From the NCBI RefSeq assembly GCF_003334405.1, contig NZ_QOWM01000001.1: a stretch of DNA of 64,000 nucleotides. One strand, given 5' to 3'. The position numbers are program-made. Positions 9,775-11,348 of this stretch are shown piece by piece. This stretch comes from Escherichia coli. Lineage in GTDB: Bacteria; Pseudomonadota; Gammaproteobacteria; Enterobacterales; Enterobacteriaceae. Each line of letters begins with the position of its first letter. Within the stretch, counting starts at the first letter, position 1.

Positions 9775-11348
9775 CTATTAAATGGCTGATCGGACTTGTT
9801 CGGCGTACAAGTGTACGCTATTGTGCATTCGAAACTTACTCTATGTGCGACTTACAGAGGTATTGAATGAAACGTGCAGTGATTACTGGCCTGGGCATTG
9901 TTTCCAGCATCGGTAATAACCAGCAGGAAGTCCTGGCATCTCTGCGTGAAGGACGTTCAGGGATCACTTTCTCTCAGGAGCTGAAGGATTCCGGCATGCG
10001 TAGCCACGTCTGGGGCAACGTAAAACTGGATACCACTGGCCTCATTGACCGCAAAGTTGTGCGTTTTATGAGCGACGCATCCATTTATGCATTCCTTTCT
10101 ATGGAGCAGGCAATCGCTGATGCGGGCCTCTCTCCGGAAGCTTACCAGAATAACCCGCGCGTTGGCCTGATTGCAGGTTCCGGCGGCGGCTCCCCGCGTT
10201 TCCAGGTGTTCGGCGCTGACGCAATGCGCGGCCCGCGCGGCCTGAAAGCGGTTGGCCCGTATGTGGTCACCAAAGCGATGGCATCCGGCGTTTCTGCCTG
10301 CCTCGCCACCCCGTTTAAAATTCATGGCGTTAACTACTCCATCAGCTCCGCGTGTGCGACTTCCGCACACTGTATCGGTAACGCAGTAGAGCAGATCCAA
10401 CTGGGCAAACAGGACATCGTGTTTGCTGGCGGCGGCGAAGAGCTGTGCTGGGAAATGGCTTGCGAATTCGACGCAATGGGTGCGCTGTCTACTAAATACA
10501 ACGACACCCCGGAAAAAGCCTCCCGTACTTACGACGCTCACCGTGACGGTTTCGTTATCGCTGGCGGCGGCGGTATGGTAGTGGTTGAAGAGCTGGAACA
10601 CGCGCTGGCGCGTGGTGCTCACATCTATGCTGAAATCGTTGGCTACGGCGCAACCTCTGATGGTGCAGACATGGTTGCTCCGTCTGGCGAAGGCGCAGTA
10701 CGCTGCATGAAGATGGCGATGCATGGCGTTGATACCCCAATCGATTACCTGAACTCCCACGGTACTTCGACTCCGGTTGGCGACGTGAAAGAGCTGGCAG
10801 CTATCCGTGAAGTGTTCGGCGATAAGAGCCCGGCGATTTCTGCAACCAAAGCCATGACCGGTCACTCTCTGGGCGCTGCTGGCGTACAGGAAGCTATCTA
10901 CTCTCTGCTGATGCTGGAACACGGCTTTATCGCCCCGAGCATCAACATTGAAGAGCTGGACGAGCAGGCTGCGGGTCTGAACATCGTGACCGAAACGACC
11001 GATCGCGAACTGACCACCGTTATGTCTAACAGCTTCGGCTTCGGCGGCACCAACGCCACGCTGGTAATGCGCAAGCTGAAAGATTAATTCGCAGTAGGTC
11101 GGAGTAGACGCGCCAGCGTCGCATCCGACGTTACGCGCCAATGCGGCCTCCGGCACTAACGCAAAAGGGAACCTGATGGTTCCCTTTTTCACATCATTGA
11201 CAATCGCCGCCAGTTCCAGGCAAACTTCCCGCTTTGTCGATTTCCTTCTGAAAAGACGTACGCGTTAAATCCTGCCAACGCACCGTAACCCTGAAACCAG
11301 AGAGATGAGACGGGGATACTCCTCGCCTTGCGCTGCATTCTGGAGTAA

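What the first reader, a model, noticed from the sequence alone, without database searches (positions are those of the whole stretch)
9786..9818. Adjacent FadR-like and FabR palindromic operators in the fabB promoter
A 15-bp FadR-like site (CTGATCGGACTTGTT) lies directly next to a 16-bp near-perfect palindrome (GCGTACAAGTGTACGC) about 50 bp upstream of fabB. This compact arrangement encodes both activator and repressor input for unsaturated fatty acid synthesis and confirms the fabB assignment independently of the ORF.
Basis: partly seen in the sequence, partly recalled or inferred. Interest (0 to 1): 0.25.

Follow-up and report, generated by a model that had tools for sequence, protein, structure and literature searches.

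The report
Known FadR and FabR operators of fabB

Summary
CTGATCGGACTTGTT lies at 9786-9800 and the palindrome GCGTACAAGTGTACGC at 9803-9818, 48 nt before the fabB ATG (9867). The window is E. coli chromosome, and the downstream ORF is beta-ketoacyl-ACP synthase I.

The 57-bp stretch 9774-9830 is identical to the published fabB probe that purified FadR shifts in gel assays. The same papers mark GGCGTACAAGTGTACGCT (9802-9819) as the predicted FabR palindrome.

My own tests agree:
- The 36-bp block 9784-9819 is about 94% conserved across 78 distinct Enterobacterales fabB upstream regions, against about 43% in the adjacent flanks.
- It is present in all 5426 complete E. coli genomes.
- The same module occurs at the unlinked fabA promoter.
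- A FadR matrix built only from fad-gene sites ranks the site 3rd of 127,968 positions.

Simple statistics alone would not have sufficed. The FadR consensus match is at chance level, and 7+2+7 palindromes occur nine times in the window.

With the published transcription start (about 9830), FadR overlaps the weak -35. FabR fills the -35/-10 spacer.

One side observation: a conserved candidate divergent mnmC promoter lies back to back with the fabB promoter.

The parts
9784..9800 (+). FadR operator, 17 bp, GGCTGATCGGACTTGTT. It spans about -46 to -30 relative to the published transcription start and overlaps the -35 hexamer by 5 nt.
   Evidence: It lies inside the published FadR gel-shift probe, which is identical to window 9774-9830. 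It ranks 3rd of 127,968 positions with a matrix built from fad-gene sites only. CTGATCGGACTTGTTC is 16/16 identical to the fabA site. The 15-mer is exact in 67 of 80 Enterobacterales species. Mean identity across genera is 94%.
9802..9819 (+). FabR operator, 18-bp palindrome GGCGTACAAGTGTACGCT. It spans about -28 to -11, filling the spacer between -35 and -10 and including the first T of the -10.
   Evidence: It is marked as the predicted FabR palindrome in PMC4537474 Table 2. It fits the core ACAnnTGTnnnnT given in PMC4804515. The arms are a perfect 7-nt inverted repeat. Ignoring the two central bases, it has at most 2 mismatches in 78 of 80 species. Variation is confined to the two central bases, the mirror positions 9805 and 9816, and 9802. 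It is present in 5426 of 5426 E. coli genomes.
9796..9801 (+). Inferred fabB -35 hexamer TTGTTC (3 of 6 matches to TTGACA).
   Evidence: Inferred from the published start 37 bp upstream of the ATG (PMC7083825) and a 17-bp spacing to the -10. Columns are 96-100% conserved across genera. It is too weak for the consensus scan, which found no site.
9819..9824 (+). Inferred fabB -10 hexamer TATTGT.
   Evidence: It sits 5-6 nt upstream of the published start. The conservation pattern is T100 A100 x x G82 T100 across genera, the usual TAnnnT signature.
9830..9830 (+). fabB transcription start site, taken from the literature, +/-1 nt.
   Evidence: [quoted passage not shown] The ATG is at 9867.
9867..11087 (+). 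fabB, beta-ketoacyl-ACP synthase I, the regulated gene.
   Evidence: NCBIfam NF005935 equivalog, 804.9 bits against a cutoff of 630, aligned over the full length. RefSeq annotates it as fabB.
9755..9769 (+).
   Evidence: PMC7083825 Table 1 places it at -112 to -98 from the start codon and reports a DNase I footprint at -119 to -94. The sequence is present at these coordinates.

Best explanation
This is the characterised regulatory region of the E. coli fabB promoter. A FadR dimer (GntR family) binds the 17-bp site 9784-9800, which overlaps the weak -35 hexamer TTGTTC, and activates transcription. Long-chain acyl-CoA releases FadR, so activation falls when exogenous fatty acids are available. 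FabR (TetR family) binds the 18-bp palindrome 9802-9819, which fills the spacer between -35 and -10 and touches the -10. It represses, most simply by competing with RNA polymerase for the core promoter, and its binding is enhanced by unsaturated acyl thioesters. Together the two sites set fabB expression, and so the unsaturated to saturated fatty acid ratio, using the same module as at fabA.

Shown in the literature for this exact sequence: FadR binding in vitro, activation by FadR and repression by FabR. Shown here: sequence identity to the published probe, placement relative to the published start site, cross-genus and within-species conservation, and sharing of the module with fabA. Inferred: the exact -35 and -10 hexamers and promoter occlusion as the mode of repression.
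For: - Window 9774-9830 equals the published fabB gel-shift probe. Wild-type FadR shifts that probe and the W60G mutant does not. fabB-lacZ expression falls 2 to 2.5-fold in the fadR mutant (PMC4259882).
- E. coli, Vibrio and Shewanella FadR all bind the E. coli fabB probe. The FabR palindrome is marked as GGCGTACAAGTGTACGCT (PMC4537474).
- In Salmonella, FabR occupies the fabB promoter by ChIP and fabB is up-regulated in a fabR deletion mutant. The core motif given is ACAnnTGTnnnnT (PMC4804515).
- The transcription start is 37 bp upstream of the ATG (PMC7083825).
- Footprint across 78 distinct Enterobacterales upstream regions: 9784-9819 is 94% identical to E. coli, against 43% for 9774-9783 and 44% for 9831-9853.
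- The palindrome is kept in 78 of 80 species, with variation at the centre and at mirror positions.
- The operator 36-mer is in 5426 of 5426 E. coli genomes. The flanking 36-mers are in 3524 and 5395.
- SNPs among divergent E. coli and E. albertii avoid 9786-9825.
- fabA carries the same module: CTGATCGGACTTGTTC followed by a FabR-type palindrome.
- The fad-only FadR matrix ranks the site 3rd of 127,968.
Against: - No binding or expression experiment can be run here, so the functional claims rest on published work.
- The primary papers could not be opened: Campbell & Cronan 2001, Zhang et al. 2002, Zhu et al. 2009, Feng & Cronan 2011 and McCue et al. 2001. Details such as footprint limits come only from secondary citations.
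- The FadR consensus match alone is at chance level, and 7+2+7 palindromes are not rare.
- Part of the conservation must reflect the -35 and -10 themselves rather than regulator binding.
- The consensus promoter scan found no sigma-70-like promoter, so the hexamer assignment is inferred from the published start site.
Confidence: 0.95

Rival explanations
1. The conserved block is only the core promoter (-35, spacer, -10) for RNA polymerase. The palindrome and the FadR resemblance are incidental.
For: The block coincides with the inferred -35 TTGTTC and -10 TATTGT. The FadR consensus match is at chance level. Palindromes of this size occur 9 times in the window.
Against: Promoter spacers are normally free to vary, yet the 17-bp spacer is 79-100% conserved apart from its two central bases. 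Conservation also extends upstream of the -35 through CTGATCGGAC (95-99%). Substitutions fall at mirror positions of the dyad. The same 36-bp module occurs at the unlinked fabA promoter. Published gel shifts and ChIP show regulator binding.
Confidence: 0.02
2. The block serves mainly the divergent mnmC promoter rather than fabB, or serves both.
For: A conserved candidate mnmC promoter on the minus strand (-35 at 9768-9763, -10 at 9745-9740, with exactly 17 bp between them in 67 of 80 species) lies about 16 bp from the FadR site. That puts FadR near -59 of the putative mnmC start.
Against: I found no report of mnmC regulation by FadR or FabR, and I ran no literature search aimed at it. The distance between the mnmC -35 and the operator block varies between genera, in two classes of 25-27 and 36-37 bp. 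The operator keeps fixed register with the fabB -35 and -10 instead. The identical module at fabA has no mnmC neighbour: ycbZ lies upstream there.
Confidence: 0.03

Closest known systems
E. coli fabB promoter FadR site (Campbell & Cronan 2001) and FabR site (McCue et al. 2001; Zhang, Marrakchi & Rock 2002; Feng & Cronan 2011)
   Same: It is the same locus and the same sequence. Window 9774-9830 is identical to the published probe.
   Different: Nothing differs.
E. coli fabA promoter FadR/FabR module
   Same: CTGATCGGACTTGTTC is identical over 16 nt. It is followed after one base by an 18-bp FabR-type palindrome and then by TAT (probe sequences).
   Different: The fabA palindrome is less perfect: AGCGTACACGTGTTAGCT against GGCGTACAAGTGTACGCT. 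fabA has additional start sites (PMC7083825). The flanking sequences are unrelated.
FadR repressor sites of fad genes (fadBA, fadL, fadD), consensus aaCTGGTCnGACC(T/A)Gtt (PMC9329746)
   Same: Same length and same dyad layout. The fabB site scores 11.1 bits with a matrix built from those sites.
   Different: The fabB and fabA sites read CTGATC..GACTTG rather than CTGGTC..GACCTG. They lie upstream of and over the -35, which suits activation. The fad sites overlap the transcription start site and so block RNA polymerase access to the promoter (PMC9329746).
Shewanella and Vibrio fabB promoters
   Same: FabR-type regulation of unsaturated fatty acid genes is retained in these organisms (PMC4537474).
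   Different: Their fabB promoters lack the FadR site (PMC4537474). In my set, Rosenbergiella, Schmidhempelia and Alkalimonas also keep a FabR-type palindrome without the FadR site.

Membership tests
FadR (GntR-family) operator | A 17-bp dyad site resembling aaCTGGTCnGACC(T/A)Gtt | tested here: met
   GGCTGATCGGACTTGTT (9784-9800) has 2 mismatches in the 13-nt core. It ranks 3rd of 127,968 positions with a matrix built from fad-gene sites only. The consensus match alone is not above chance (76 hits observed, 68 expected).
FadR (GntR-family) operator | Bound by purified FadR and released by long-chain acyl-CoA | not testable with these tools
   Published gel shifts use a probe identical to window 9774-9830. 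Release by acyl-CoA is stated for FadR in general.
FadR (GntR-family) operator | For an activating site, a position upstream of or overlapping the -35 rather than over the start site | tested here: met
   The site centre at 9792 is about -38 from the published start at 9830. It overlaps the inferred -35 at 9796-9801.
FadR (GntR-family) operator | Conserved in orthologous promoters of species that carry the regulator | tested here: met
   CTGATCGGACTTGTT is exact in 67 of 80 Enterobacterales species, with columns 95-100% conserved. Presence of fadR in those genomes was not checked.
FabR (TetR-family) operator | An 18-bp palindrome with core ACAnnTGTnnnnT | tested here: met
   In GGCGTACAAGTGTACGCT the stretch ACAAGTGTACGCT fits the core given in PMC4804515. 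The arms are perfect 7-nt inverted repeats.
FabR (TetR-family) operator | Located immediately downstream of the FadR site within the core promoter, as at fabA | tested here: met
   One base separates the 17-mer from the 18-mer. The arrangement is the same at fabA. The site spans about -28 to -11.
FabR (TetR-family) operator | Bound by FabR, with derepression in a fabR mutant | not testable with these tools
   Salmonella ChIP and transcriptomics are in PMC4804515. The E. coli primary papers are cited there but could not be opened.
   78 of 80 species have at most 2 mismatches outside the two central bases. Mean identity is 94%. The site is in 5426 of 5426 E. coli genomes.
FabB / beta-ketoacyl-ACP synthase I | A full-length match above the curated cutoff of the KAS I equivalog model | tested here: met
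   NF005935 scores 804.9 bits against a cutoff of 630 over residues 1-405. The FabF models score below their cutoffs.

The most novel reading that the evidence does not exclude
The FadR/FabR block lies back to back with a conserved candidate promoter for the divergent tRNA-modification gene mnmC, with FadR near -59 of that promoter. FadR, and perhaps CpxR, whose published box overlaps the candidate mnmC -35, could therefore also tune mnmC. That would couple tRNA wobble-uridine modification to lipid or envelope status. Nothing I ran tests this. The variable spacing between the two promoters argues against it.
Probability: 0.04. Interest if true: 0.35.

Novelty: already known. Interest (0 to 1): 0.05.

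Why it matters
This is a textbook example of dual control, an activator and a repressor on adjacent sites, governing membrane lipid unsaturation in E. coli. It adds no new biology. The useful lesson is methodological. Consensus and palindrome statistics alone were at chance level. Cross-genus conservation and the paralogous fabA module are what single the site out.

Tried and rejected
- The consensus scan for sigma-70 promoters and terminators over 9650-9900 found nothing. The fabB -35 is too weak for its threshold, so the hexamers were inferred from the published start site.
- The crude FadR consensus search was uninformative: 76 hits against 68 expected.
- The degenerate palindrome search with up to 3 mismatches gave 3 hits against 3.1 expected. 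The other two hits, at 34141 and 46580, are chance-level.
- Other top FadR matrix hits, at 28899 inside yfcH and 25837 inside hisQ, lie in coding sequence and were treated as chance.
- I looked for dyad covariation between the mirror positions 9805 and 9816. T..A occurs 4 times against about 2.5 expected under independence (my tally). There is no real covariation; each half-site simply tolerates the same change.
- The inverted repeat ACTTGTTCG/CGTACAAGT that bridges the two sites was rejected as a functional feature. The palindrome centre varies among orthologs and at fabA.
- An RNA hairpin or terminator reading of the palindrome was rejected. It would have a 7-bp stem with a 2-nt loop and no T run.
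- Five primary papers were not held in the library.
- A literature search for simultaneous FadR and FabR binding gave nothing relevant.

Full report
**Identity of the locus.** The window is Escherichia coli chromosome. A 401-bp query spanning the finding (9600-10000) matches all 5426 complete E. coli genomes. It is 100% identical to many of them and always lies over 'fabB | mnmC'. The ORF at 9867-11087 (+) matches the NCBIfam equivalog for beta-ketoacyl-ACP synthase I: NF005935, 804.9 bits against a cutoff of 630, over the full length. The FabF models score below their cutoffs. The divergent gene is mnmC, whose annotated start corresponds to the GTG at 9708 on the minus strand. The intergenic region is therefore 9709-9866, 158 bp.

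**Checking the observation.** CTGATCGGACTTGTT lies at 9786-9800 and GCGTACAAGTGTACGC at 9803-9818. The palindrome has perfect 7-nt arms, GCGTACA and TGTACGC, around a 2-nt centre. The palindrome ends 48 nt before the ATG. All the descriptive statements hold.

**Is it more than chance?** Not by simple statistics.
- The FadR core consensus with up to 3 mismatches gives 76 hits against 68 expected. Four loci in the window match with 2 or fewer mismatches, and the fabB site is one of them.
- Perfect 7+2+7 palindromes occur nine times in the window, against a mean of 3.8 in shuffles.

Three other lines do single the site out.
- First, a weight matrix built only from five fad-gene FadR sites, taken from probe sequences printed in PMC4259882, ranks 9784-9800 third of 127,968 positions. 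The two better hits lie inside yfcH and hisQ coding sequence.
- Second, the unlinked fabA promoter carries the same module. CTGATCGGACTTGTTC is identical over 16 nt and is followed by an 18-bp palindrome of the same type, while the flanks are unrelated.
- Third, conservation. I collected fabB loci from 80 species of Enterobacterales and relatives, with FabB 78-100% identical. I aligned 78 distinct upstream regions. Mean identity to E. coli is 94% across 9784-9819, against 43% for 9774-9783 and 44% for the 5' UTR 9831-9853.

**Pattern of variation across species.**
- The FabR 18-mer is kept with at most 2 mismatches in 78 of 80 species, ignoring its two central bases.
- Variation falls at the two central bases (AG, AC, TC, GG), at 9802, and at the mirror positions 9805 (G/T) and 9816 (C/A). 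Variation at mirror positions is what a dyad-symmetric protein site would show.
- The FadR 15-mer is exact in 67 of 80 species.
- The FadR site is lost in Rosenbergiella, Schmidhempelia and Alkalimonas, which keep a FabR-type palindrome.
- Both sites are lost in the endosymbiont Gullanella.

**Variation within E. coli.**
- The operator 36-mer is present in 5426 of 5426 genomes.
- The downstream flank 36-mer is in 5395 genomes and the upstream flank 36-mer in only 3524.
- In an alignment of divergent strains and E. albertii, no substitution falls between 9786 and 9825.

**What the literature says about this exact sequence.**
- Window 9774-9830 is identical to the 57-nt probe called 'fabB-F' in PMC4259882 and 'fabB_ec-BD-F' in PMC4537474.
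- Wild-type FadR shifts this probe and the W60G mutant does not. fabB-lacZ expression falls 2 to 2.5-fold in the fadR mutant (PMC4259882).
- The primer table marks GGCGTACAAGTGTACGCT as the predicted FabR palindrome.
- The text states that FadR activates and FabR represses fabA and fabB (PMC4537474).
[quoted passage not shown] The window sequence ACAAGTGTACGCT fits that motif.
- The palindrome was first predicted by phylogenetic footprinting (McCue et al. 2001, as cited).
- The FadR consensus is aaCTGGTCnGACC(T/A)Gtt (PMC9329746).
[quoted passage not shown] That is about position 9830.

**How it most likely works.** With the start at about 9830, I infer the -10 hexamer as TATTGT (9819-9824). 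Its conservation pattern across genera is T100, A100, x, x, G82, T100. I infer the -35 as TTGTTC (9796-9801), 17 bp upstream. It matches the consensus at only 3 of 6 positions, which explains why the consensus scan reports no promoter and fits dependence on an activator.

The FadR 17-mer spans about -46 to -30 and overlaps the -35 by five bases. The FabR 18-mer spans about -28 to -11. It fills the spacer exactly and includes the first T of the -10.

The literature supports FadR stimulating transcription until acyl-CoA releases it, and FabR repressing with binding enhanced by unsaturated thioesters. Repression by occlusion of the core promoter is my inference from the geometry. Whether both proteins can occupy the block at once I could not establish.

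**Rivals.**
- Reading the block as core promoter only does not explain three things: a conserved spacer, conservation extending upstream of the -35, and the paralogous module at fabA.
- A role for the divergent mnmC promoter is discussed under side observations. It is unlikely to be the main function, because the operator keeps register with the fabB hexamers and not with mnmC.
- An RNA hairpin or terminator reading is excluded by the geometry, a 2-nt loop and no T run.

**Side observations.**
- *Candidate mnmC promoter.* The block GCAAATTT (9765-9772) is as conserved as the operators, at 86-100%. Together with a conserved minus-strand TAAGAT (9745-9740) it forms a candidate mnmC promoter: -35 TTGCGC (9768-9763), a 17-bp spacer, and -10 TAAGAT. 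In 67 of 80 species the pattern is present with exactly 17 bp between the hexamers, although the spacer sequence diverges.
- *Spacing of the two promoters.* The distance from that element to the fabB -35 falls into two classes, 25-27 and 36-37 bp, which differ by about one helical turn.
- *CpxR box.* The published box GTAAGgctgcGCAAA (9755-9769; PMC7083825) shares its right half with this conserved block. Its left half is polymorphic within E. coli (GTAAG, GTCAG, GCCAG) and poorly conserved across genera (15-40%).
- *Shared 5' UTR motif.* The fabA and fabB 5' UTRs share CTTACAGAG just before the start codon.

**Verdict.** The one overstatement is that the operators 'confirm fabB' independently of the ORF: the same module marks fabA. 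This is the already described and experimentally characterised fabB control region. Novelty: already known. Interest: low.

Noticed in passing
window 9740-9768, minus strand: Candidate divergent mnmC promoter: -35 TTGCGC (9768-9763), 17-bp spacer, -10 TAAGAT (9745-9740). The hexamer pattern occurs with exactly 17 bp between the hexamers in 67 of 80 Enterobacterales loci although the spacer sequence diverges. This accounts for the strongly conserved GCAAATTT block at 9765-9772.
   Followed up: partly
window 9755-9769: The published CpxR box GTAAGgctgcGCAAA (PMC7083825) is only half conserved. The right half coincides with the conserved block above. The left half, GTAAG, varies within E. coli (GTCAG, GCCAG) and across genera (15-40% identity). 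The 36-mer 9748-9783 is found in only 3524 of 5426 E. coli genomes.
   Followed up: partly
window 9763-9801 and loci L001-L080: The distance between the candidate mnmC -35 and the fabB -35 falls into two classes, 25-27 bp (53 loci) and 36-37 bp (14 loci; Serratia, Pectobacterium, Yersinia, Edwardsiella, Hafnia). They differ by about one helical turn.
   Followed up: no
window 9851-9859; L081 about 768-776: [quoted passage not shown] It may simply be ribosome-binding-site context.
   Followed up: no
window 9794-9802 and 9804-9812: An imperfect 9-nt inverted repeat, ACTTGTTCG/CGTACAAGT, bridges the right half of the FadR site and the left half of the FabR site. It is not conserved at fabA or in orthologs whose palindrome centre differs, so it is probably incidental.
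   Followed up: partly
L043, L054 (Rosenbergiella), L071 (Schmidhempelia), L080 (Alkalimonas), L074 (Gullanella), L067/L069 (Edwardsiella): The FadR site is degenerate or absent while a FabR-type palindrome is kept in Rosenbergiella, Schmidhempelia and Alkalimonas. Both sites are lost in the endosymbiont Gullanella. Edwardsiella has a 1-nt insertion between the two sites. Whether fadR itself is absent from those genomes was not checked.
   Followed up: no
window 28899-28915 (-) and 25837-25853 (+): These are the two best FadR matrix hits in the window, CGCTGGTACGATTTAGA and CGCTGGTATTATCACTC. They lie inside the yfcH and hisQ coding sequences and are probably chance matches.
   Followed up: partly
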